A DNA stretch of 62,973 nt, filler included, from Collodictyon triciliatum (Eukaryota): NCBI GenBank assembly GCA_043381765.1. It is 8 parts of 8 records of this genome, joined end to end, with 100 filler letters (N's around TTAATTAATTAA, not from the genome) between each part and the next. Parts side by side here need not be neighbours in the genome. Positions count along the whole stretch, not along the records: positions 15,745 to 23,533 come from JBHJMP010003739.1; 7 more parts are not named here. One strand, written 5' to 3'. The number at the start of each line of letters is the position of its first letter. The first letter of the stretch is position 1. The notes under the pieces are model-generated. The model made no database searches. It was not told the origin of the DNA and worked only from the letters and a program-made list of their open reading frames with translations. The position numbers and the translations under genes are program-made. This document shows, one piece after another, positions 18,137-60,012 of the stretch.

Positions 18137-21100
18137 TTATTGGGACATCGGATCGAATGAAGCACTCTTTTTGTGTAAGCTTTTCATCTTGACCAACTTT
18201 TTTTTGACATTGCCGTTCTGAAAAAGTGGAAAAACAAACGCTTTGCTCGCAAAGTATAGCAACCAGATAGAGTTCATGGTTATGATTAGTACTGTTATCC
18301 ATGCTTGCGAACCAAGCAAAGTGGATAAAAGCGCTAGGAAGAACGAGACAAAGATAACATACAAGCTTGACAGCTCCATTTGATTTTCTAATTTTGTGTT
18401 GTAAGGTTTGTAGACCTTTTGCACCCAAATAGAGGCCTACATATCGTATTGATAATTAATCAGAGGATTTTAATTGCGTATTAATTTGTGAGGTAAATAT
18501 TTAAATTACATGTAAAATATAGGGACCTGAATAACTATCACCAACAGTAAAAAGAAAACCGACGGATCAGAGTATGGAATGACACTTAGAATAAAGGAAA
18601 AAGCAATGCGACGCACGATAATGATGAATTCCCAGTATCGGAAGCTCTGTATGAAAAATGCACATTTATAAGAAATTGTCGACTACCATACTTAATCAAA
18701 AGGAAAGAAAAAGCCATAGAAACTACCTCTTTGTATGGCAAGTACAAGAATCCATATCTCGCTACCGGTTCATAGCCATGTTTTTCACACATAAATCTGA
18801 CTTTACTCCAAGCAAAAACTGGCAACCCAAACAGGAAGAGAGCAAACACCGGAACAGATACTGCAAGCATTTTTCGGTATTCATCTGAAGGGGGGCTGCA
18901 TTTAACCCAGGGCTTGTAATTCAGGTACCAAATGTCTTCGCCATCATCATAAACAGTGCAACCAAAAACTCCAAAAACTTCTCTTGCAATAGAATAGTAT
19001 ATATAAAACAGAAGATTCAAAGTGATGAAGACGGCCTAGTTAAAAAAAAATCTGGATTTTAAAATTCGTAAAATATGGACTTGATTTAATCGATATGTCT
19101 TACCTTGTTCCGTTTATGGCCATATCCAAAATAGTACAGGACTAAACCAGCGATGACAAATATGGGTATTCTCACAAAACTGAAAAGTAGTGAATCAAAA
19201 ACAGTTTTATTTTCGAGTAAACACGATGGATTTGGGAATTCAATTGACCCGATGGAAGAAGAAATATCGATAAAACTGTTTGTGCCGTCTGATTGCAGAA
19301 TTCCAGATGAAATAATGGATAATGTTTGCATGTGAAACATAGTAATCCTGAGTTTTGCTAGAATTTTTTTTAAAAAAGTATCATTTTAGGTAAATTTGAG
19401 CAATGAATTAAGTAAATTAGATGAAATAACCTGATTTTGAAGCTTCTGAACGGTATAAGTAAGTAATAAAGCCACAAAATCCCATAGAACCAAGAACCAA
19501 GGTTGAGTAAATCGACCCTTCATTACACTTCACACATGATCTCCCTTGATTTACGTATCCTTTCTGACATTTTGAACACGCGTGGCTTTCATATCCTTCC
19601 TTACAAAACTGAACTATTTCCACAGTTACATTTGAATATGATACTCTACTTGGAATACGCGTTTCGCATGAATTCGGATTTGGACATGGTAGAATGAAAT
19701 TTAGAGTGGAAACATTTGGCGAGGCATAGCAATATTTCAAAGAAACTCCGTCTAAACATTCACATTCCCTTGAACATGGCAAACAGTCGCTTCCGAATCC
19801 AAAATATCCTGGTAAACATTCACAAAATTCATAATCATAATACTCTGGATTCATATCAACTTTTAGTTCAATCAGACCAGATTTCGAGACAATGGATGGA
19901 CACAGATAAAATTTCGATTCATCCTCCAAACTATACGGCGATGAAAAATTCATGAACCCGGGAAGAAAATGGGATAATTCGTGATTCATTAAAGTATTAC
20001 TTAAACCTAGATATTCCAGCTTTGTGAACTGGCTGTATGATTCAGGAATATTTCCAACTATCGGATTTCCAGTGAGATCAAGATAAGTCCATTTTAGTAA
20101 ATTTGTAAGCTCTCCAAGTTTTGTGATGGTGTTATTTCTTATACTTAATGTCTTAACATTTGGAACGAAATTAAAAATAATCGAATTAATTTCTCCACTA
20201 ATGTTATTATCATTTAAGAGTAGGGTATCATAGTAGTAATTATAATCAATCGATTTGGGAGAAATAAAAAAGCCAACATCACCAAAGAATGAATTGTCGC
20301 TCAAATCAATAGTAACTAGGTTAGGAAGGTTCCAAAACATAATTGGCATACTTCCGGTAAATTTGTTATGGGACAAAGTAAGAGACTTGAGTCCATATAA
20401 TTCTTCAAAAAAATTTGAGATGGTTCCGTTCAACGTATTCCGGGACAAATCAATGTATTGAATCGATGGAATAACCCAACTACCAGGAATAGAACCAAAA
20501 ATTTGATTTTCACTTATATCTAAATTTGTCAGCTTTAGTAGATTAAATGAAGGAAGAGTTCCAGACAACTTGTTTCTGAATAATACTATTTCTCTAATAT
20601 TCACAGAATTCGAAAAATTTGGAACAAGTCCTCCTATTTGATTGTCATATGCAGAAAAACTATCTAAAAATCCTAGTTCTGAGAAATCCGGAATGGTTCC
20701 TATGACGAATGATTAGGAAATGAACCAAAAATAAGTGTAAATTGTAAAGAATACCGTTTAATTTATTGCTTGAAAGATTAATCGATACAACGGACGAAAT
20801 CCTTTTGAATTGAGGTATTGTCCCTAATGTAATAATATAGAATGATTAATAAATTTCACTATCTCACACGCTTATTGAATTACGATAGATTTCTAGGTTT
20901 ATTAAATAATTAAATTACCAGTAAGCTGGTTGCTGTAAATGTTTATACCCTTGACTCTTGGGAGGCCACCAAAGTCTGGGATAGTTCCTATAAGAAATAA
21001 TCAGGGACAAATTCATATCCACATGATATAACCGTTTACTCACCCACGAGTTCGTTGCTGTATATAAAAATTCCCCTCACCTTCGGGGTATTTGTGAAAT

Positions 21101-23145
21101 TTGGTATTGTTCCTGTAATAATAAATAAGTATTTATATCACATAATTATAAGAAATATATTAGGTACCATTAAGTTGGTTGTCATATAGGTAAATCCATG
21201 CGACATTAGGAATGCTCCAGAAGTCAGGGATTGTGCCTATACGTCTTAAATATTAGAAATTCAATATTTTTAAACCAAATCATGGAATTTACCGGTCAAT
21301 TTATTACTAAAAAGGTAAATATTTTGAACCAAGGGTATGTTTGTGAAATTCGGTATTGTTCCTACAATAAAAAATTATTAAGACAGGATGTTTACATAAT
21401 ACACAAAACCACCTAGCACGATAGGGAGAAAAATATTACCGTTTAATTGATTTTCATATAAGTAAATGTAAACTAAATTCGGTATATTTTCGAAGTCTGG
21501 AATAGTTCCTGTAAAAAAAAATTATCTTAAAATCTAATAATTTGAGGATATTTGAATAAGACTTACCATCAAGTCTATTGCTCAAAAGGTAAATACTACC
21601 CACGAACGGAATTTTTCCAAAGTTAGGAATTGTTCCTATAAAATTTCGATTTAATTTCGTAATAATTATATTTTAAAATAAACCTACCAACAAGACGATT
21701 TTCATTAAAATAAATCGTATCCAAAATCGGTATACTACTGAAGTTTGGGATTGTTCCTGATATTTGAAATAAACCATGTTAAAAAGGCATCCATCAGAGA
21801 GGATTTCTTTAAAGTAAAATACTCACCGAAGAGTCTACTTTCATAAATTGCAATTACTTGGACATTTGGTAATCCAGAAAAATCTGGCAATGTTCCTTAT
21901 GTGATAACTGGATTAGAAAATATCTCAGCGAATCAATAAAATGAGGCCTAAGTACCTGTGAGCTTATCGCTTAAACCAATATATAAACCACCAGCTAATG
22001 TAATTCCTGAGAAATCAGGAACAGTGCCTTCAAGTTTGTTGCCATCTATCTCCAGATGCTGCAGATTTGACATACCTTTAAAATCTGGAATAGTTCCGGT
22101 GATTTGATTGGAATAAAGATTTAGATAAGTAATGCTTGGAAAAGTAAAGTCTGGAAGTTTCCCAAAGACAAAGTTGTAACTCAAATCCAAGTCTCCGAGA
22201 AATAAGAATTTCTCAAAGATTGGCGACGAAGTCTCTATGTCACCATAAAGGTTGTTTCCTGACATCCACATTCCAAGCACCGGGCATGTATTATTCTAGT
22301 AAGATAATGTCGGAATCAATTTCAAAAAAGAAGAATCTTTCAAAGAGGCACTGACCTTGTATTCACCCTCTAGACAATTTTCGTCACAACTAACTCCGTA
22401 CCATTCACAAATCGGTACCTTTTCATTTTTCCATCCGCTACTGTCAAACCATTCATCACCATTAAATGCATCGTAAATATCAACCAAGAGTTTATATTGA
22501 TTTGCATTAATATCATTGTCAATTGTTCTTTCTGACGAAAATGTTCGCTCCAAACTTGATTTCTTTTTTTCCATCACGTGAAATTGAGGTTTGTTTTGAA
22601 AGTGCTCAGCTTTATCAATGGGATGGTTGCTCGGGTCAATTTCTCCACTCTGAAAGCTTTTGTTGATATCCCGGTTGTTATCGCATTTATCTGTTGTTGG
22701 CAGCAAGGGACAATATTTCTCGTTTTCTTGGACCAGTGAAAAGCATGTCTCGTCGTAAAATTCCAAAAGTATTTGTAATGCATCATCGACCTTCATGGAT
22801 AGAAACTCATCCTTTGTATATTGGCATCTAAAAATTATTTGTTAAATATTTAGATAATAATATGAAACTCCAAATCGAATAAAGGATACATATAGGAATG
22901 AATAGGATGGCTGCCCTACTTTCCAGGTGGTTTGAATGAGGAACATAAGACCGCAAGAAATATCATCGAAATGATTAGAACGAATGCTCTCCATTTTCTT
23001 CAAAAACATATTTTTAGTTGAAAAATAGAATAAAGTTATTCTACGTAAAATATAAATTAAAAATGTAGTATGGAACGAAACGGAGCGAACTAAATATTTG
23101 ATGTAAATTCGAATAAATTAAATTCATTCACTCTTGGTATTTCAT
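18137..23145 (-). CDS. LRR receptor-like membrane protein: signal peptide, N-cap, >20 plant-type LRRs, Cys-rich stalk, multi-pass TM C-terminus
   Basis: Signal peptide MKYQE/KWRAFVLIISMIFLAVLCSS uses a 14-nt first exon (23132-23145). N-cap WFDSSGWKNEKVPICEWYGVSC is followed by repeated LxLxxNxLxGTIP, then CECLPGYFG...CKEGYESHACSKCQKGY, then several TM helices with RYGFLYLPYK...YWEFIIIVRR. Confidence 0.88.
20755..21895 (-). repeat. Array of nine 69-nt exons, each encoding one 23-aa LRR
   Basis: Exons 21827-21895, 21688-21756, 21567-21635, 21440-21508, 21293-21361, 21168-21236, 21044-21112, 20919-20987 and 20755-20823. All are bounded by AG/GT, with the intron splitting the Gly codon of GT(I/L)P (phase 1). 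Confidence 0.92.
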
Positions 23146-23533: not shown

Positions 23534-23633
23534 NNNNNNNNNNNNNNNNNNNNNNNNNNNNNNNNNNNNNNNNNNNNTTAATTAATTAANNNNNNNNNNN
23601 NNNNNNNNNNNNNNNNNNNNNNNNNNNNNNNNN
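23534..23633. other. Artificial contig spacer
   Basis: Same 100-nt linker. Confidence 0.97.
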
Positions 23634-23732
23634 GTTTTTATTGTTTTTATTGTTTTTATTGTTTTTATTGTTTTTATTGTTTTTATTGTTTTTATTGTTT
23701 TTATTGTTTTTATTGTTTTTATTGTTTTTATT
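23634..23732. repeat. (GTTTTTATT)n minisatellite
   Basis: 9-mer tandem repeat at contig start. Confidence 0.9.
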
Positions 23733-24152
23733 ATTATCATTTTATTATTATTTCGTCTTTTGCTTTGTTAGCTATCACATCATCATTTCTTTCTGTCTTT
23801 GTGTGCTTCATGTGTGCGATTATGCAATAATGTAAGAGAAGTTGGGAAAGAATCCTTGTTGCTTCCTCTGCTCTGCTTTGCTTCCGCCTTTGGCTGTGGC
23901 GCTGTGACTTTGAGCCTTGAGAGAAGGATCAAATCACAAAATCCGCGCACTTGAATGTGGTCTGCATCAAAATTGATGCAACGTAAATTCCGCATTAAGG
24001 ATATATTCATTGAATTATTCTTTTCTTAAATCTTGTTTTTTTCTCCATTTTTTTCATTAATATCTTTTATTCCTGCATGTATATTTCCATTAACAATATT
24101 CACTAAATGTTTTTCTGGGCGTTTTCTCTCTCTCCCTCCCATTTTTTTTTTA

Positions 24153-31645: not shown

Positions 31646-34600
31646 CTTGTATTTGTAGGTGAGGGTATTTCTTGGCTGTGATGGGATGGTTGAGTTGTAA
31701 GGCAGCAGCATCTCATCGCGATCGGCCTGAAAAGATTAACGCACACATCGTTATGTCAAATTTTTGTATATATCGAATATGAAATTACTGGAAATGGTGT
31801 AGGTTCTATCCAATTCAAAAGTACTTGTTAAAAAAATAATTGCTCATTTCAACTCTGTTTACATATTTAATATTTTACTTCTTTAATATATTATGAAATG
31901 AAAATGAGATTCAGATACGTATTGTTTGAGGGGAAAAAACCTGTGTCAGTGCTGTTTTTGGTCGTCGTGGGTCCAAGAATCGGCGATCTAGTCCCAAAAC
32001 TTGACCAGTACTCAACCCGACTTGAAGAAACAAGACAATTAAAAANNNNNNNNNNNNNNNNNNNNNNNNNNNNNNNNNNNNNNNNNNNNNNNNNNNNNNN
32101 NNNNNNNNNNNNNNNNNNNNNNNNNNNNNNNNNNNNNNNNNNNNNNNNNNNNNNNNNNNNNNNNNNNNNNNNNNNNNNNNNNNNNNNNNNNNNNNNNNNN
32201 NNNNNNNNNNNNNNNNNNNNNNNNNNNNNNNNNNNNNNNNNNNNNNNNNNNNNNNNNNNNNNNNNNNNNNNNNNNNNNNNNNNNNNNNNNNNNNNNNNNN
32301 NNNNNNNNNNNNNNNNNNNNNNNNNNNNNNNNNNNNNNNNNNNNNNNNNNNNNNNNNNNNNNNNNNNNNNNNNNNNNNNNTGAGTTCCCAGAGAATAAAG
32401 GCATTTTCGCGATATGATAATGCGTGGCAGAAGAAAAATTATATTTTCCATACTTGGCGGATAGTGGTGACTTTCTTGGATTCCCATGATGAAAACTTTG
32501 ATGATTCTCTGAAAAATTGACATATCGGTAGGTGGATAAGAAAAGAGTAAGTAAAAATGATTGAATATAGCTATATATAAGGCTCTGGTTGTGTTCTCTA
32601 CTGTCTATATTGCTTATGAGAGAATAATTGAGAAGAGGAGGAAGAAGGGATGGGATGAGTATGTGACAAAGTTTTGACAGTTAAAATATATGCTCACGAT
32701 GAATCGTCATCACTCTCTTCAAACATTTCTATGCCAGTCATATCGAACCGAGACTCTGCTTGGTTCCAGAAGTGATATGCAAGCCAATTATCAGAAAGAA
32801 CTACTCGGACAGGACCCTATGAAATTAATAATAAATATATAGATAAGGAAAGAAGTAATTAAGTCCTACAATTATTTGCTGCCAGACATAGAATGCGAAT
32901 AAAAGGTAATGGGTGAATCATGTGGATGTAACTATGAGAACGAGCCCTACTTTGGCTTGGTACTTTGTCTCAGAGTATATGATGGACCCTGTCACTGTGT
33001 CGAGCACATAAATGTATAAGGAGTGTTGCAGAGACTTTACACCTGCGTTGATATTAAGGAGAATAATTGGAAGTCAAACAAAAACATCTAATGTCTTTGG
33101 CTATAAAATAACAAAAAGAACGAATGCCTTGTGAGGGGGAAAAAAAGACGGGGAGATTGAATAGAGGACTCGTGTTACCGGTTTCGCTTGATGTGATCAC
33201 AACGAGTAAATTAGGATTCAAGTATTTCCATAGATATGTGCGGTCTCCAAGAATACGGACGGGTGAGTAAGGGGTTTCCTAATTATATTCCCAACATAAT
33301 TACTTCACGAATGCTTCTTCAAGACGATTTCATGTGATAAAATAGTTTAATCATCAATAAATAATCGAAGTTGGATTATTAAATTAGATTTCAGTAAAGA
33401 GAAAAAAAACCAAAGAATGGCGTGATGCAGTTGACTCAATCTTCTGGTTTGAAGGAACAATGAAGCTCCAAATCATTTGTCCGTAATATGTGTTGCTCTG
33501 CAAGTCCTGATAAGCCGTTTTTTTAGTAGAGAAATATAATGATGATTTTTGAAGATATTCTATTTATTTATCGCAGCCATTACTAAATAACTAATCTGGC
33601 TGATTCTTATCAGAGCAGTCTACCTTTTGTCTAATGGAATATCCCTCGATTTTCCCATTATCTGCGTCCAGGATATAATAATATCGACTATAGCAAGGCA
33701 AAAGAAAAAAGAAAAAAAAGACGAGGTATGTGACAGAATTTTGTTTGTTTCTTACTCGATTGGGAATATCAAAAAAGCGAAATATATTATTTACTGCTCG
33801 AATGGATGTAGGAGTATCATATCAATCATACCTGTTATAATGCTGTTTGAATGAGGCATGGGAACCATCTGCATCAGGGTAAATATGAACCTAGGTATGT
33901 GAGAATTTAATGAATAGAAATGTTTGAAGGCATGTATGAGGTTATTTCTCAATGTGATGGGCTTCTGGTAAACCTGATGTGATGAATCTACAATCATTAT
34001 AAGGCGACGTCGTTCAATATCTGAATCCGGAAGTTGACTCGCCTAAGTATTTTAATTCGCTCAAATGAAAACAAATAAATAATAGATAAATATAAGGTAT
34101 TTATGAAATATTAATTATGTATGAATCCAATATATTTCACATGCCATACTCACTTGTAGGACTTTGAAAGGGAGTGGGATGTATCGTGAGATGGTTCCTG
34201 AGATTGGGTCTATGTCAGCAGCATACCAGAAGTCCTACATTAGAAGGTCTGCACTTGAATATTTGACTGAGCTGGCAACTTGACATAAAAATAATGAAAA
34301 ATTTAATTTAGATAAAAAAAAAATGTTCATATGATGTTATGTAAATGAAATAGCTCACATTTTCAGTATCTCGAAGAATTAATGTTGCAATAGATATATC
34401 AACTCCGGTGTTTCTAGTTACGAAGCTGGACATGACGGTCAGAGGATGTCCTATATTCAGAAATCATAAGTTATTGTTGTCGTTATTGTTATTGTTGTCG
34501 TTATTGTTGTTATTGTTCTTCTATAATATATGGAAACGTGAATCTTGGTCTGTAATGTATGCACCGGTTGTAAGAGATATTATAGACAAACTGAGTTAGT

Positions 34601-45448: not shown

Positions 45449-47196
45449 GAAGTCTGCGGCCTCCTGAAGTTTAACACACGGGTACTTATGTTCGACACCA
45501 TTCTGCTTTGCTCGCTGATTCACAAAAATAAGAAAAACTGGGCCGAATGAATCCGCCACGGAAGTGTGCGTCTTTTCTCGCCTCAGAACACTCATTAGTT
45601 TAAGTCTGACGTGCTTGCCACAATGATGAAGCGGCTGCGTGTCGAGGGAGGCAGAGCCAAAGGTGGGCATGACCGCGTTGTTGGTGAGAGTGAAAGAAGG
45701 GAAAGTGGGGATGTGGGAAAGCGCTCGGTTTGCNNNNNNNNNNNNNNNNNNNNNNNNNNNNNNNNNNNNNNNNNNNNNNNNNNNNNNNNNNNNNNNNNNN
45801 NNNNNNNNNNNNNNNNNNNNNNNNNNNNNNNNNNNNNNNNNNNNNNNNNNNNNNNNNNNNNNNNNNNNNNNNNNNNNNNNNNNNNNNNNNNNNNNNNNNN
45901 NNNNNNNNNNNNNNNNNNNNNNNNNNNNNNNNNNNNNNNNNNNNNNNNNNNNNNNNNNNNNNNNNNNNNNNNNNNNNNNNNNNNNNNNNNNNNNNNNNNN
46001 NNNNNNNNNNNNNNNNNNNNNNNNNNNNNNNNNNNNNNNNNNNNNNNNNNNNNNNNNNNNNNNNNNNNNNNNNNNNNNNNNNNNNNNNNNNNNNNNNNNN
46101 NNNNNNNNNNNNNNNNNNNNNNNNNNNNNNNNNNNNNNNNNNNNNNNNNNNNNNNNNNNNNNNNNNNNNNNNNNNNNNNNNNNNNNNNNNNNNNNNNNNN
46201 NNNNNNNNNNNNNNNNNNNNNNNNNNNNNNNNNNNNNNNNNNNNNNNNNNNNNNNNNNNNNNNNNNNNNNNNNNNNNNNNNNNNNNNNNNNTTATTTATT
46301 ATTTATTATTATTATGTTTTTCTTCATTTCATTTCCCATTACCTATTTCGTTTACAAGACGATTAAAATGGAGGTAAATTCATAAGGGTATTGCGCAATA
46401 TTTCTTTACATATTGGACTGATTGACACAGAAGTCACATGTGTTATAACCCAATCTCAGCCGTGTTTTTCCCTTCTTTTTGCATGTATGGCTCCAGCGTC
46501 CTCAACTTTGAAGGAAAAAGTTCCAAAAGTTGTTGACAAACCAGTCGCATTTCACTCAAGGATAAAGTCGTCAGAATACGGAGCTACTTCAGTCGACTCA
46601 ACGAATCCAAAGACAACTTCAAAGAGATCAGGCTTATCAGGGTTTCGCATTTATAACCAGCACTTAATCATATATAGTAAATAAAAAAAATTTTAAAAAA
46701 AAGACTTAATCACACACATACACATACCTGGCTTATATACATAAGAATCACCTTTTCTTTTTTCTTTAAACTGTATTAAAAGGAAAGCCAACGACTGAAT
46801 GAATAATAGCTGATTTTCAAATTGAAAAAAAAATCGTATATATTGGAGAAAGATGAGATTTTTGAGATATGTTTTGATATTGCATTCTTTCATATGACAT
46901 TCTAGGAACTTACTGGAAAATAGTACCCCATAAATCGTGGGCCTCCTCATATCCCTCAACCTCGGGCATCTGTTATTCCGCCACAATCCGGCGCCGTTCT
47001 ACGCCTGATTCATTCATGTGAATACATTCCAATATCACTGCCTTCTTTCTTGTTTTTTTCACTTTCACTTGGGTGCTTCTGTGTGATGATGGTTTTTAAA
47101 AGAAAAGGAAGAGAAAGCGAATCTTGATACTGTCGATTTGTATCAATCAAGGCAATGCAGAGAGAATAACCAGCTGCGGGTCTGATAAAGTCACTC

Positions 47197-50800: not shown

Positions 50801-53800
50801 TCAGATGCTTCCTCCATAAACTCGGCTAGTTCCACCCACAAGCATTCAGAACCATACAATCGTACACAGACGGCACAAATGTTCCCCTCTGGTGGGGATG
50901 CTTCGTCATTCATAATTTCCTGTAATATAAAATAAATATATGGAATTTTTACTTACATAATGTTACTTTATTTTGGATATAAAATGAAATAAGTTCGGTT
51001 ACATAATTCATTTAATATTTTAAAATTATATAATAATCATTAACCAGGAATGATGAGCTGGATGAATGTCGGGATGTTTCGATTAAGCTCTGTTGATTAT
51101 TAATATTTCTTTTTGAATGAAATATGCCAAGTAAAAAAGGGGGAAAGGGGGAAAGGGGGAAAAGGGGAAAAGGGGAAAAGGGGAAAAAAGGGGAAAAAAG
51201 GGGAAAAAAAAGGAAAAAAAGGGGAAAAGGAGAAAAAAAGGGAAAAAGGAAAAAGAAAGGAAACAATACAAATATTTTTCTTGATGCTTCTTGAAAAGAT
51301 GGTCTCTCATTTGGATTTTGTGCCCAAAGCTGCTTTACAATTGTTTCGAAATCAACCGGTGTATTTGGGGGTATTTCTGGTCTTAAAGCATTCATCACAA
51401 CTTGTGTCGTGACAGCAAAAGCATTCTCGATGTTGTGATAGGGGTCTTTTCGAGACAATATTTCCCATGCGATAATACCAAAACTATAAACATCGGCGCA
51501 TGCTGTGTACTCTTTTCCCTCTATGACCTCTGGTGCTAACCAAAGTAAACTTCCAACGCCTTCGGCACTTGTACTAGAGCCTTGGATGGTGGTCAAACCG
51601 AAATCACTACAATTGTTCGAAAATTCATTAAATGATAAGGCTTGTAACATCGATGAAGAAATGATATATTATCCATTGATTTTTGAAATTTTAATGATAT
51701 CTTGCACAATAAGACATACCTAACTTTGAGTCGGAATCTATCGTCAACCTAAAACAAGATAATTTGTTTGAATTACTAGAACTTTAGAAAATCGGTTGGA
51801 AAAAAACTATCGAATTACATAAAAAAACTACAAACCAAAATGTTAAGGCTTTTCAGGTCTCTATGGATTATTGGTGGATTTGATGAATGAAGATAATTCA
51901 TACCTGAATCATTGAATTAGAACTTCTCGCTAGATTTAATAAATTACTCAAACGATTTTTCAGAGTATGAATTCTTACCCTTCGAAATATCAGACATGAA
52001 GGCGAGCTTTTGGGAATAAGACAGAGAAATTTCGCTGTGCAACACATCATATAAACTTCCTTGGTGCATAAACTCGCAAACAAGACATAGGTCACTACTG
52101 TTGAAGCAAGCTCCCATGTACAATACAATATTCGGATGCCTTAACTCTCTGCATTATTTGATTTTTGTTAACTTTATAGTGAAAAGTCTTTTAAAAAAAG
52201 CAAACACAAAAATGAAATGAAATGACATAAAATATAATAAAAAATCGATGATGCACTACACGAGAGAACCAGACATAACTGTTTGATAATAATAACAATA
52301 ATAACAATAATAACAATAATAACAATAATTGCAATAAAAGTAATAGTATTAGTAATGAAAATGATGATATCAATCATATATCAATATGTACAAGTAAATA
52401 AACTTAATACTTCAATAAAAACACCCATATAAAATAAAAGCATACACCATTATTGCGATTTCCTTCTTAAAGTTTTCTATCTGCCGGTTGTTGAGATGTT
52501 TTTGAAGAAGAACCTTAATGGCTACTTCGGCTCCTCTCCATTCCCCTTTGAAAACCTGCGAATTCTTGAAGTTTAAACAACAATTTTTGCATTTACTATT
52601 GTCTGAAATTTGATAGGAAGCTACCTGTCCAAAACTTCCTTGACCCAAAAGCTGTCCAAAATTTAAATCTTTAGGGTCGACCGTACCGTAGAGCTTCTTT
52701 TCAGCTCCTTTGACATCATCTATCATTTTTTTCCGGTAGAAGTACACAGTGACTGAGAAAAATACTAGAACACCTCCAACAACACCAGCGATGATGGCAA
52801 CATAATTGATTCTCTGGTGATTCTCTGAGATAAAAATTGGTAAGTGCGTATTTCATTGTAGCAAAAATGGACATCGCACTCATTACAATTTATTTTTAAT
52901 TTTATAGTAAAATGACCGCCATGCATGATTTTAAATCAATTATAACCTTTTTCCTGGCATTGTCCCTATAAAATAATGTAACCTTAACAATTAATTTAAG
53001 GATATCTATAAATGAGGTAATATTGTCTTACGTTGTTCATCAAATACCCTTGTTTGCATCGGCATTGGTTTATTTTGGCGTCATACGTGGAAGACGCAGA
53101 ACAACCTTCAAATTTTTTTATTTATGTGTCAAGTTTAAAAAACGGTTAGACTACATATCACATCAATCGTTACTCTTTTCTCATTAAAAATCAATACCAG
53201 GGTAGAACCAATCACGAGGGTCAAAGTTAGCCAGTGGGCCAATGGATGGAACTTTAGGTGTTAGCTTTTTGAATACATCGTAGTTGTATAGAATGAAGCT
53301 CTGAACTTGAATTTCAGTAGCGTTCTATAAATTGGTGTTAGAATGATACCATAAAATTGTCAGTTATAATAATTATATTTTTTTCAAAAGCCAACTTGAA
53401 TCAAACTCCTGGGCAAAATAATGTCAACAATATTGGCATCATAGAAGTCGTCGTCTCCGCCTCCAAGGAATCTCTATTTATATAAAGTTATGTGAACAAT
53501 TGACATGTATAAAAAAAATAAACAGAGTGTATTAACTGCTGATGATTCTTTATTCCTCAAGGAAAAATCTGCTGATGTGATATCGAAGAGTCCTACAAAT
53601 ACACTATATTGCCAGCTTTCCCTCGGAATGCCAGATAAATTGACAGGTATGTAAAACTATGTAAGGCAGTAGTTAAAGCTATTGAAATTGTGTTCAAATT
53701 TCACCGAATAATACTTTTTTTTCTTTTACAGATTCCCTTCATTTGATTAGAAAATGAATTTGATAAAGATTTCATAGTGTTTATGTGGTAGAAGACGAGG

Positions 53801-59363: not shown

Positions 59364-60012
59364 GTGAGTCTTCTGCATCGCCCGATGGTTTCACCCCTTG
59401 ACATTTNNNNNNNNNNNNNNNNNNNNNNNNNNNNNNNNNNNNNNNNNNNNNNNNNNNNNNNNNNNNNNNNNNNNNNNNNNNNNNNNNNNNNNNNNNNNNN
59501 NNNNNNNNNNNNNNNNNNNNNNNNNNNNNNNNNNNNNNNNNNNNNNNNNNNNNNNNNNNNNNNNNNNNNNNNNNNNNNNNNNNNNNNNNNNNNNNNNNNN
59601 NNNNNNNNNNNNNNNNNNNNNNNNNNNNNNNNNNNNNNNNNNNNNNNNNNNNNNNNNNNNNNNNNNNNNNNNNNNNNNNNNNNNNNNNNNNNNNNNNNNN
59701 NNNNNNNNNNNNNNNNNNNNNNNNNNNNNNNNNNNNNNNNNNNNNNNNNNNNNNNNNNNNNNNNNNNNNNNNNNNNNNNNNNNNNNNNNNNNNNNNNNNN
59801 NNNNNNNNNNNNNNNNNNNNNNNNNNNNNNNNNNNNNNNNNNNNNNNNNNNNNNNNNNNNNNNNNNNNNNNNNNNNNNNNNNCAGAGATCGACGTGTCGA
59901 ATAGCAGACGAGGGTCGGCGAGGCCGTCCGAGAAGAAAGACCGTGAGAACCAGTGCCTAAAATCACTTGTTGCTTGACTCAGTTCCGCTCAGCCCCACAC
60001 AGAGACCAGGCA

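What the first reader, a model, noticed from the sequence alone, without database searches (positions are those of the whole stretch)
20755..21895. One-LRR-per-exon cassette: nine symmetric 69-nt exons with variable binding-face residues in a surface receptor
Seen: nine consecutive exons of exactly 69 nt, all phase 1-1, separated by short introns (about 50-95 nt) of unrelated sequence. They encode GTLPDFSGLPNVQVIAIYESRLF, GTIPNFSSIPILDTIYFNENRLV, GTIPNFGKIPFVGSIYLLSNRLD, GTIPDFENIPNLVYIYLYENQLN, GTIPNFTNIPLVQNIYLFSNKLT, GTIPDFWSIPNVAWIYLYDNQLN, GTIPNFTNTPKVRGIFIYSNELV, GTIPDFGGLPRVKGINIYSNQLT and GTIPQFKRISSVVSINLSSNKLN. The framework is conserved while the exposed beta-strand positions vary and are aromatic-rich. 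The LRRs on either side lie in long intron-free exons, so only the central block is modular. Known: LRR exon shuffling is described for brown-algal (Ectocarpus) LRR-ROCO genes, and LRR cassettes underlie lamprey VLRs. Inference: any exon can be skipped, duplicated or swapped without a frameshift (2^9 skip combinations), suggesting a diversifying recognition system for prey, pathogen or self/non-self in a protist.
Basis: partly seen in the sequence, partly recalled or inferred. Interest (0 to 1): 0.8.

Follow-up and report, generated by a model that had tools for sequence, protein, structure and literature searches.

The report
Nine single-repeat exons in LRR receptor
A protist membrane-receptor gene has nine consecutive 69-base exons that each encode exactly one leucine-rich repeat; this looks like an old product of exon duplication, of a kind already known from brown algae and animals, and nothing found so far shows that the exons are skipped or reshuffled.

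Summary
On the minus strand, nine 69-nt exons (21895-20755) are each flanked by AG/GT, all in phase 1-1, and each encodes one 23-residue plant-type LRR. They are exons 4-12 of a 17-exon, 1243-codon gene (22966-18137). The product has an LRRNT cap, about 23 LRRs, a Cys-rich stalk and a multi-pass membrane domain. Spliced RNA contigs confirm four other introns of the gene, but none covers the nine-exon block.

All 16 traced relatives with this architecture are Diphylleia rotans transcripts.

The block looks like an old, lineage-specific tandem exon duplication. Its units resemble each other (51% aa) more than flanking units (37%) and lack positional counterparts in four of the five closest relatives, whereas the intron-free flanking units have them. 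Synonymous sites are near saturation and the introns share no similarity.

Nothing supports ongoing diversification:
- No orphan exons in the window.
- The binding face is not more variable than other variable positions; it carries a conserved Tyr/Phe ladder.
- 39 Diphylleia isoform comparisons show no whole-LRR indel.

Exon skipping remains untested in this gene. This is a new member of a known kind.

The parts
18137..22966 (-). Whole coding region of the 17-exon gene (1243 codons plus stop): signal-like N-terminus, LRRNT cap, about 23 LRRs, Cys-rich stalk, multi-pass membrane domain
   Evidence: Open frame only with the ATG at 22966; exon table; collinear with Diphylleia transcripts P0002 (36.8% identity over 1300 columns) and P0001 (39.6% over 1098 columns, 28 gaps)
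22920..22966 (-). Exon 1 (47 nt): start codon and short hydrophobic N-terminus
   Evidence: An X1 RNA contig runs 22986-22920 and joins to 22827. The start codon is the first in-frame ATG after a stop. The hydrophobic stretch continues upstream of it, so the true start is uncertain
22356..22827 (-). Exon 2 (472 nt): N-terminal region and LRRNT_2 cap
   Evidence: Pfam LRRNT_2, E 4.7e-5, 24.0 bits against a cut-off of 20.7; the intron 22919-22828 is skipped by an RNA contig
21956..22295 (-). Exon 3 (340 nt): first four to five LRRs, intron-free, ends in phase 1 just before a GT(I/L)P unit
   Evidence: Pfam LRR_1/LRR_4/LRR_8; exon table
21827..21895 (-). Exon 4 = LRR unit C1 (69 nt, phase 1-1)
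   Evidence: A DNA metagenome contig of X3 spans 21811-21957, exon plus intron flanks, with 8 differences
21688..21756 (-). Exon 5 = unit C2
21567..21635 (-). Exon 6 = unit C3 (closest to C5, 15 of 23)
21440..21508 (-). Exon 7 = unit C4 (closest to C6, 17 of 23)
21293..21361 (-). Exon 8 = unit C5
   Evidence: A DNA contig of X4 covers 21188-21385, introns included, with 0 differences
21168..21236 (-). Exon 9 = unit C6
21044..21112 (-). Exon 10 = unit C7
20919..20987 (-). Exon 11 = unit C8 (has a positional counterpart in P0001, 13 of 23)
20755..20823 (-). Exon 12 = unit C9 (has a positional counterpart in P0001, 13 of 23, with an identical INLSSNKL strand)
19431..20699 (-). Exon 13 (1269 nt): about ten further LRRs, a Cys-rich stalk (15 Cys in residues 740-900) and the first membrane helix; intron-free
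   Evidence: Pfam LRR families. The closest solved structures are plant LRR receptor-kinase ectodomains: GSO1 at 2.3e-62, FLS2 at 2.6e-56. Its 3' boundary is confirmed by an RNA joint. Both boundaries are mirrored in the genomic ORF P0222
19104..19357 (-). Exon 14: membrane domain
   Evidence: RNA joints 19357/19431 and 19034/19103 ('cut +1') in X2
18727..19035 (-). Exon 15: the most conserved part of the membrane module (extracellular Cys/Trp loop between helices)
   Evidence: RNA joints. phmmer finds 58 relatives at E<=0.001 among 1.84 billion representatives. Of these, 28 carry LRRs, 7 carry DUF7630 and 5 match PF06011 TRP
18527..18646 (-). Exon 16: membrane domain
   Evidence: RNA joint 18646/18727. 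The loose end at 18438 fits a junction 18527/18436 (reading)
18137..18436 (-). Exon 17: last membrane helices, C-terminal tail and stop
   Evidence: An X2 RNA contig covers 18143-18438 with 0 differences; exon table

Best explanation
Exons 4-12 are the result of old tandem duplications of a single LRR exon together with its phase-1 intron. At least once the duplication probably took two exons at a time (C3-C4 giving C5-C6). This happened inside a gene for an LRR-ectodomain, multi-pass membrane protein.

The duplicated piece was bounded by introns that split the same Gly codon. Every copy therefore inherited the same length (69 nt, one 23-residue repeat) and the same phase. Symmetry is thus a by-product of how the block grew and need not be a device for variation.

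The copies then diverged until synonymous sites and introns lost their similarity. They kept the LRR framework and a Tyr/Phe ladder on two positions of the concave face.

The mature mRNA most likely includes all nine exons. It would give a continuous solenoid of about 23 LRRs on a Cys-rich stalk, fused to a membrane module distantly related to the fungal Flc/TRP family (PF06011).

Shown: the exon anatomy, expression and splicing of the gene outside the block, the similarity pattern of the units, and the age of the duplications. Inferred: constitutive inclusion of all nine exons. Also inferred is that the aromatic stripe is a ligand-contact surface, possibly for an extended or repetitive ligand such as a prey or cell-surface polymer.
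For: Anatomy: nine 69-nt phase 1-1 exons, with the flanking LRRs intron-free.

Duplication within the gene:
- Mean identity among the nine units is 51% aa and 57% nt. Against four 23-residue flanking units it is 37% and 48%. Among those flanking units it is 28% and 44%.
- Units C2-C7 find their best match inside their own gene (13-17 of 23), not in any of five Diphylleia proteins (7-13 of 23).
- The best pairs are C4/C6 (17 of 23) and C3/C5 (15 of 23), both two units apart.

Register-shift test:
- Flanking intron-free units match their positional counterpart better than counterparts shifted by 1-3 units: P0002 10.0 against 4.2-6.8; P0156 9.2 against 4.0-6.8; P0162 8.0 against 2.3-6.0; P0001 9.5 against 5.8-8.2.
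- The nine exon units show no such signal in P0149 (7.6 against 7.0-8.3), P0156 (7.6 against 6.9-7.9), P0002 (7.6 against 7.4-8.4) or P0162 (7.6 against 6.5-7.4).

Age: third codon positions are 37% identical, against 28% expected from composition. Intron pairs score 14.9, against 14.8 for shuffles. There is no TRF array.

All nine exons fit the mature product:
- The frame is open over 1243 codons.
- The model aligns with transcript-derived relatives across the block almost without gaps: P0149 has 11 gaps in 1005 columns and P0001 has 28 in 1098.

Expression: four other introns of the gene are removed in contigs of X1 and X2.

Stable architecture: the ORF P0222, on a 1790-nt genomic contig and 50% identical, starts its homology exactly at the first residue of exon 13 and ends it at the last. 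It has Phe-rich (pyrimidine-tract-like) read-through before and 'GY' (GGT TAT-like donor) after.

Conserved, not diversified, face: aromatic residues at positions 16 and 18 number 12 of 18, against 4 of 34 (Fisher p 8.8e-5) and 102 of 954 (p 4e-8).

Low prior for skipping: high exon-skipping rates are a bilaterian trait linked to gene architecture (PMC6142364, abstract and passages).
Against: - No RNA contig covers 20396-22691, so inclusion of all nine exons in every transcript is not shown.
- In P0001 the exon units do show some positional signal (8.7 against 6.1-7.9), driven by C4, C8 and C9 (12, 13 and 13 of 23). So part of the block predates the split from that Diphylleia gene, and 'lineage-specific' applies mainly to C2-C7.
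- Unit comparisons rest on 23 residues each and on only four flanking units of equal length.
- Higher similarity among the nine units could also come from past gene conversion rather than from later duplication.
- The isoform survey is from another species. It comes from a short-read Trinity assembly, covers only members clustered at 90% identity, and the gene structures there are unknown.
- No second genomic locus could be read, so conservation of exon number and order across strains or paralogues is untested.
Confidence: 0.65

Rival explanations
1. One reading: the nine symmetric exons are a splicing cassette. Exon skipping, or somatic or germline swapping, produces receptors with different LRR numbers and combinations, forming a diversifying recognition system.
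For: - Formally possible: every exon is 69 nt and phase 1-1, and each begins and ends at a repeat boundary, so any subset gives an in-frame, seamless solenoid.
- Precedent: in brown-algal ROCO genes each LRR lies in one 72-nt symmetric exon, and alternative transcripts with different LRR sets are reported (PMC11378527, passages; PMC3341825, passages).
- In human NLRs the same modularity is used for regulated skipping of an LRR exon (PMC6642158, abstract and passages).
- LRR number differs by whole units between family members.
Against: - No RNA evidence either way for the block.
- 39 isoform comparisons in 15 Diphylleia clusters show only terminal truncations, C-terminal differences, 1-aa indels, one 5-aa insertion and one 12-aa half-unit gap. 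None shows a whole-LRR indel.
- The Ectocarpus hallmarks are absent here: no recent duplicates, and no inactivated or reverse-strand LRR exons in introns or nearby. The introns are only 52-95 nt.
- There is no docking/selector-like complementarity.
- The concave face is not preferentially variable.
- Exon skipping is uncommon outside bilaterians (PMC6142364).
Confidence: 0.12
2. Relic architecture: the ancestral array had a phase-1 intron between all or most LRR units. The flanks lost theirs, for example through recombination with reverse-transcribed mRNA, and the centre simply kept them. The block would then be the oldest state rather than an expansion.
For: - The introns bounding the block, before C1 and after C9, have the same position and phase as the internal ones.
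- The intron position at the start of exon 13 appears conserved in a relative that is 50% identical.
- C8, C9 and C4 have positional counterparts in P0001, so they are old.
- All duplications are ancient anyway.
Against: - The nine units are more alike to each other than to flanking units, and C2-C7 are closer to each other than to any unit of five relatives.
- They lack positional counterparts where the flanks have them. That is what a later internal expansion predicts, and it is not expected if all units are equally old.
- Intron loss on both sides of a retained centre is less parsimonious than one growing centre.
Confidence: 0.15
3. Artefact or dead gene: the '69-nt exons' are not spliced as modelled, or the locus is a pseudogene.
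For: No read-level proof of splicing for the eight internal introns. The start codon is uncertain.
Against: - The frame is intact over 1243 codons across 16 introns, all with GT..AG ends after the one-base adjustment of the exon 14/15 junction that the RNA joint indicates.
- RNA contigs with four introns removed show transcription and splicing.
- The model is collinear with transcript-derived proteins through the block.
- First and second codon positions are far more conserved between units than third positions: 62% and 71% against 37%.
Confidence: 0.02

Closest known systems
Brown-algal (Ectocarpus, Saccharina) LRR-ROCO genes with 'shuffling' LRR exons (Zambounis et al. 2012, PMC3341825; Teng et al. 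2024, PMC11378527; passages read; supplementary tables not seen)
   Same: One plant-type LRR (GxxPxxL...LxxLxLxxNxL) per short symmetric exon, arranged in long tandem runs. Frame-neutral removal or addition of an exon is possible.
   Different: - There: 72-nt exons, phase 2 as reported in PMC11378527, cytosolic ROC-COR GTPase proteins, related inactivated LRR exons inside introns and on the opposite strand, clustered fast-evolving genes, positive selection, and alternative transcripts.
- Here: 69 nt, phase 1, an extracellular array on a membrane protein, introns too short (52-95 nt) to hold pseudo-exons, none found, ancient divergence, and no splicing data for the block.
Exonic modularity of LRR domains in vertebrate NLRs (Hoss et al. 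2019, PMC6642158; abstract and passages)
   Same: Strict repeat-per-exon architecture, with the intron always at the same place in the repeat, described as a precondition for in-frame alternative splicing.
   Different: Those are RI-type 28/29-residue repeats in cytosolic sensors (one per exon in NOD/NLRC genes, two per exon in NLRP genes), and regulated skipping is shown experimentally for NLRP3 exon 5. Here the repeats are plant-type 23-residue units, and skipping is untested.
Glycoprotein-hormone (LH/FSH/TSH) receptor genes, as cited in PMC11378527 (Koo et al. 1991; Kobe and Deisenhofer 1994; only the citing passage seen)
   Same: An LRR ectodomain built from exons of one LRR each, with all introns in one phase, interpreted as growth by duplication of a prototype exon. 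The overall layout is LRR array, then Cys-rich hinge, then multi-pass membrane domain.
   Different: Those are phase 2 and carry a rhodopsin-type 7TM domain. Here the membrane module shows no significant GPCR match: Pfam gives none and Foldseek GPCR rows have E 0.5-1.7.
Plant LRR receptor kinases and receptor-like proteins (closest solved ectodomains: GSO1 6s6q, FLS2 4mn8, MIK2, PEPR1)
   Same: LRRNT_2 cap and the GxIP-type LRR consensus, with strong sequence similarity of the ectodomain (E down to 2.3e-62). ERECTA and SERK genes are recalled to have one LRR per exon in a static architecture. I could not confirm this from the papers searched.
   Different: There is no kinase domain and no single-pass anchor. 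The C-terminus is a multi-pass module. The repeat period is 23 rather than the 24 residues recalled as usual for plant-type LRRs.
Fungal Flc/TRP-domain membrane proteins (Pfam PF06011; for example Flc1; PMC9600462, search listing and abstract only)
   Same: The membrane module of this family is linked to PF06011 through 5 of 58 relatives at E<=0.001. One of them, P0192, just passes the curated cut-off with 28.9 against 28.5 bits. The atlas also lists TRP and Ephrin_rec_like clusters as look-alikes.
   Different: The window's own module gives no Pfam hit. No solved structure matches the predicted fold clearly. The fungal proteins are not described with LRR ectodomains in what I saw.
Lamprey variable lymphocyte receptors (recalled; no call)
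   Same: LRR modules as units of receptor variation.
   Different: VLRs are assembled somatically from flanking cassettes by gene conversion. Here the modules are ordinary exons of one germline gene, and no donor cassettes lie nearby.

Membership tests
Plant-type (GxIP) extracellular LRR domain | N-terminal cap of the LRRNT_2 type | tested here: met
   PF08263 in exon 2, E 4.7e-5, 24.0 bits against a cut-off of 20.7
Plant-type (GxIP) extracellular LRR domain | Repeat consensus LxxLxLxxNxLxGxIP | tested here: met
   In the nine units G1, T2, P4, F6, I15 and L22 are invariant and N20 occurs in 8 of 9. There are 19 motif hits in the gene. The best solved relatives are plant LRR-RK ectodomains
Plant-type (GxIP) extracellular LRR domain | 24-residue period (recalled as typical of the class) | tested here: not met
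   The nine units are exactly 23 residues, and flanking units are 22-24
Plant LRR receptor kinase | Single-pass anchor followed by a cytoplasmic protein-kinase domain | tested here: not met
   No kinase family in the exons scanned or in the full-length relatives P0001, P0002 and P0004. The hydropathy scan finds nine overlapping hydrophobic windows between residues 972 and 1207
Exon-shuffling LRR receptor genes of the Ectocarpus ROCO type | Each LRR in one symmetric exon of constant length, in tandem | tested here: met
   Nine exons of 69 nt, phase 1-1
Exon-shuffling LRR receptor genes of the Ectocarpus ROCO type | ROC-COR GTPase domain | tested here: not met
   No such Pfam family in the window exons or in the relatives
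Exon-shuffling LRR receptor genes of the Ectocarpus ROCO type | Related inactivated or reverse-strand LRR exons in introns or nearby (a sign of recent shuffling) | tested here: not met
   0 of 28 tblastn HSPs and 0 of 19 motif hits lie outside the gene's own coding strand. Tested within this 63-kb window only
Exon-shuffling LRR receptor genes of the Ectocarpus ROCO type | Recent duplicates (highly similar exons and introns) | tested here: not met
   Highest nt identity is 67% and the mean is 57%. Third positions are 37% identical against 28% random, and introns are like shuffles
Exon-shuffling LRR receptor genes of the Ectocarpus ROCO type | Positive selection on concave-face residues | not testable with these tools
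   Synonymous sites are near saturation and no orthologous loci are available. Entropy shows no excess on the concave face: 2.07 against 2.14 bits
Exon-shuffling LRR receptor genes of the Ectocarpus ROCO type | Alternative transcripts with different LRR exon sets | not testable with these tools
   No RNA contig covers the block. 39 isoform comparisons in relatives show none, but their gene structures are unknown
Pfam PF06011 (TRP / Flc-like membrane proteins) | Match to the family profile above its curated cut-off | tested here: inconclusive
   The window's exon 15 gives no family at E<=0.01. Among 58 relatives of that exon, 5 match at E<=0.001 and one reaches the cut-off with 28.9 against 28.5 bits
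Pfam PF06011 (TRP / Flc-like membrane proteins) | Shared fold with a solved member | tested here: inconclusive
   The model of P0161 has pLDDT 85.3 and pTM 0.80. Foldseek finds nothing at E<=0.001. The best VIA-align Z is 8.4 over 85-87 residues of generic helical bundles
LGR-type (LRR-containing) G-protein-coupled receptor | Rhodopsin-type seven-helix domain after the LRR array and hinge | tested here: inconclusive
   No 7TM Pfam family. GPCR chains appear only at Foldseek E 0.5-1.7 with TM-scores of 0.17-0.25

The most novel reading that the evidence does not exclude
The gene belongs to an undescribed family of receptors, so far traced only to diphyllatean flagellates, that fuse a plant-type LRR array to a Flc/TRP-like multi-pass, possibly channel-forming, module. 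In this member, the nine frame-neutral exons would be used by exon skipping to make receptors with different numbers of LRRs and different lengths of the aromatic stripe, tuning what the cell recognises (prey, microbes or self).
Probability: 0.1. Interest if true: 0.7.

Novelty: new member of a known kind. Interest (0 to 1): 0.3.

Why it matters
Repeat-per-exon LRR genes are the raw material of proposed 'innate diversification' systems in brown algae and of regulated isoforms in human NLRs.

This locus adds a clean example from a very different branch of eukaryotes. Its only traced relatives are from Diphylleia, a CRuMs flagellate. It also occurs in a different protein context: an extracellular array on a multi-pass membrane module.

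The locus is a useful negative control for the idea that symmetry implies diversification. Here symmetry is explained by how the block grew, the copies are ancient, and the putative binding face carries a conserved Tyr/Phe ladder rather than hypervariable residues.

The receptor family itself (LRR, Cys-rich stalk, PF06011-like module) has at least 16 expressed genes in Diphylleia. No paper in the searched library couples Diphylleia with leucine-rich repeats. The family may deserve attention as a candidate prey- or surface-sensing system of a predatory protist.

Tried and rejected
- Whole genome for a paralogue or orphan-exon census: not held.
- RNA across the block: no listed holder is on record as RNA. 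X1 and X2 behave as RNA, with four introns removed, but no contig covers 20396-22691. There is therefore no evidence on inclusion or skipping of the nine exons.
- Genomic loci of relatives:
  - Two scans of metagenome contigs, one with a single sequence and one with alignment A1, found pattern matches (153 and 158) but no relative.
  - Scans of genome contigs and viral contigs with P0222 found none.
  - The contigs of P0222 and P0223 could not be fetched, because the look-up tool for encoding contigs is closed.
- Earlier notes of this scan: nothing for this genome, for look-alike stretches or by words.
- DNA-level tandem repeat: none.
- Dscam-like docking/selector complementarity: only 8 short AT-rich inverted pairs with no system.
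- Rfam: no RNA family in the window.
- Fold of the membrane module: no clear solved relative.
- dN/dS between units: abandoned because synonymous sites are near saturation.
- Literature for the recalled one-LRR-per-exon structure of ERECTA and SERK: one search found no paper. The paper I opened from the other had no relevant passage. That comparison therefore stays a recollection.
They may hold details on exon phases and inactivated exons.
- The Trinity isoform numbers (for example i20) first looked like a hint of many splice forms. Alignment showed only terminal truncations and C-terminal differences.

Full report
**What is there**

The feature lies on the minus strand.
- A mechanical scan for AG + 69 nt + GT with an open frame finds nine such segments in one frame offset. 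They lie at 21895-21827, 21756-21688, 21635-21567, 21508-21440, 21361-21293, 21236-21168, 21112-21044, 20987-20919 and 20823-20755.
- I joined them with the neighbouring exons by coordinates. Only one start codon (22966) gives an open frame, and it runs 1243 codons through 17 exons to a stop at 18137.
- The nine exons are exons 4-12. Each is 69 nt and starts and ends in phase 1; the intron splits the Gly codon of GT(I/L)P. Each encodes exactly one 23-residue repeat.
- The nine peptides equal those in the finding.
- The eight introns between them are 52-95 nt. The flanking introns are 60 and 55 nt. All are GT..AG and AT-rich.
- The LRRs before and after the block sit in intron-free exons of 340 and 1269 nt.
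- A degenerate LRR motif hits 19 times, all in this gene, and never in 20 shuffled windows.

**Is the gene real and expressed?**

- No genome is held for the window.
- Among public runs, two small runs of one study (X1, X2) hold 27% and 20% of the gene's sampled words. Runs labelled freshwater metagenome hold smaller shares.
- Laid on the gene, contigs of X1 and X2 skip 22919-22828, 19430-19358, 19102-19035 (cut +1) and 18726-18647. All four have CT..AC on the plus strand, that is GT..AG for this gene. A loose end at 18438 fits a fifth intron.
- These contigs are therefore spliced transcripts, so the gene is transcribed and spliced.
- DNA contigs of X4 (21188-21385, 0 differences) and X3 (21811-21957, 8 differences) carry exon plus intron.
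- No RNA contig covers 20396-22691. The splicing of the nine exons is therefore inferred. The inference rests on the open frame, the canonical sites, the likeness of these introns to the verified ones, and collinearity with transcript-derived relatives.

**What the protein is**

- Pfam finds an LRRNT_2 cap in exon 2 and LRR families in exons 3 and 13.
- The closest solved structures are plant LRR receptor-kinase ectodomains: GSO1 at 2.3e-62 and FLS2 at 2.6e-56.
- After about 23 LRRs comes a stalk with 15 Cys, followed by nine overlapping hydrophobic windows between residues 972 and 1207.
- The best full-length relatives (37-41% identity end to end) share this layout.
- All 16 such relatives whose source I looked up are Diphylleia rotans transcripts in EukProt.
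- The most conserved membrane exon (exon 15) has only 58 relatives at E<=0.001 among 1.84 billion representatives. Of these, 28 carry LRRs, 7 carry the Cys-rich DUF7630 and 5 match Pfam TRP (PF06011). One of the five just passes the curated cut-off.
- The protein atlas gives the same leads.
- A confident model of the module (P0161 with family alignment A3; pLDDT 85.3, pTM 0.80) has no clear solved relative.

So this is an LRR ectodomain fused to a rare multi-pass module that is at best distantly Flc/TRP-like. It is neither a receptor kinase nor a recognisable GPCR.

**How the block arose**

- The nine units are 51% identical to each other in protein and 57% in DNA. Against four flanking units of equal length the figures are 37% and 48%. 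Among those flanking units they are 28% and 44%.
- C2-C7 find their best match within the gene (13-17 of 23), not in five Diphylleia proteins (7-13 of 23).
- The best pairs, C4/C6 and C3/C5, are two units apart. This suggests that a two-exon piece was duplicated at least once.
- A register-shift test is the most telling.
  - The intron-free flanking units match their positional counterparts in relatives better than counterparts shifted by one to three units. For example, P0002 gives 10.0 against 4.2-6.8 of 23, and P0156 gives 9.2 against 4.0-6.8.
  - The nine exon units show no positional signal in P0149, P0156, P0002 or P0162.
  - Only in P0001 do C4, C8 and C9 stand out (12, 13 and 13 of 23).
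- So the flanks are old and individualised. The middle of the exon block is an internal expansion whose 3' end is older.
- The expansion itself is ancient. Third codon positions are 37% identical against 28% expected by composition, introns are no more alike than shuffles, and TRF finds nothing.
- A duplicated piece bounded by two introns in the same codon position yields copies of equal length and phase by itself. The symmetry needs no further explanation.

**Tests of the diversifying-system reading**

- (a) Binding face. In the plant-type register, the solvent-exposed strand positions are 13, 14, 16, 18 and 19 of the unit.
  - Their mean entropy is 2.07 bits. The other non-framework positions have 2.14 bits and the framework has 0.40.
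  - Positions 16 and 18 are Tyr or Phe in 12 of 18 cases. The figure is 4 of 34 in the gene's other units (p 8.8e-5) and 102 of 954 in 16 relatives (p 4e-8).
- (b) Hallmarks of dynamic shuffling described for Ectocarpus are inactivated or reverse-strand LRR exons in introns, recent duplicates and clustering (PMC3341825). They are absent in this window.
- (c) There is no docking/selector-like complementarity.
- (d) Across 39 isoform comparisons in 15 Diphylleia clusters I saw terminal truncations, C-terminal differences, 1-aa indels, one 5-aa insertion and one 12-aa gap. None showed a whole-LRR indel. This is weak evidence, because it comes from another species, a short-read assembly and unknown gene structures.
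- (e) A genomic ORF from an unnamed record (P0222, 50% identical) begins and ends its homology exactly at the two ends of exon 13, with intron-like read-through on both sides. The intron that closes the block is therefore old and stable.
- (f) High exon-skipping rates are essentially a bilaterian trait tied to gene architecture (PMC6142364, abstract and passages). Introns here are 52-95 nt.
- Against all this, LRR number does differ by whole units between family members, so units are gained and lost on an evolutionary scale. The direct RNA test is also missing.

**Comparison with what is known**

- Repeat-per-exon LRR genes are well described:
  - brown-algal ROCO genes (72-nt exons; PMC3341825 and PMC11378527);
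  - vertebrate NLRs (PMC6642158);
  - gonadotropin receptors (cited in PMC11378527).
- This locus shares the architecture but differs in exon length and phase (69 nt, phase 1), protein context, age of the copies, and lack of shuffling hallmarks.
- It is not a ROCO gene, a receptor kinase or a recognisable LGR (see Membership tests).
- No paper in the searched library couples Diphylleia with leucine-rich repeats (0 papers).

**Verdict**

- Best reading (0.65): an ancient internal tandem duplication of an LRR exon, most likely constitutively spliced, giving a long solenoid with a conserved aromatic stripe.
- Rivals: splicing cassette (0.12), retained ancestral introns (0.15), artefact (0.02).
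- It is a new member of a known kind, of modest interest. The receptor family and its membrane module are the less expected part.

Noticed in passing
window 22967-22999 (minus strand): The hydrophobic, signal-peptide-like stretch continues for 11 codons upstream of the first in-frame ATG (22966), up to a stop at 23002-23000. Two upstream ATGs (23009, 22994) are in another frame. The true start, or a further 5' exon, is therefore uncertain. The X1 RNA contig reaches 22986.
   Followed up: partly
window 20178-20264 (exon 13, about residues 639-667): An X1 transcript contig that otherwise matches at about 98% replaces 85 nt with 91 unrelated letters here, which keeps the frame. This is the irregular stretch of the LRR array (Tyr/Asn-rich 'island'), so it may be a variable insert between strains or close relatives.
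   Followed up: no
window 51012-52852 (minus strand): ORFs with protein-kinase motifs (a glycine loop and a conserved C-lobe), preceded by a hydrophobic segment. This suggests an intron-containing membrane-anchored kinase gene. Seen only in the ORF list.
   Followed up: no
window 23540-23760, 31990-32300, 45620-46290, 59400-59900: Scaffold gaps (1985 N in all), next to short-period microsatellite-like and low-complexity runs. The window is a draft scaffold, so exon counts near gaps elsewhere should be read with care. The gene studied here contains no N.
   Followed up: no
Diphylleia proteins P0207 and P0205 (relatives, not the window): One Trinity isoform lacks 12 residues (half an LRR unit, starting at a GxIP) inside the array. 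This is the only internal LRR-region difference seen in 39 comparisons. It might be an alternative splice site or an allele.
   Followed up: no
Relatives P0004, P0005, P0007 (FG-GAP repeats) and P0006 (NIDO domain): Some family members carry extra N-terminal adhesion-type domains and up to three LRRNT-capped LRR arrays in one protein. The family varies its ectodomain by domain accretion as well as by LRR number.
   Followed up: partly
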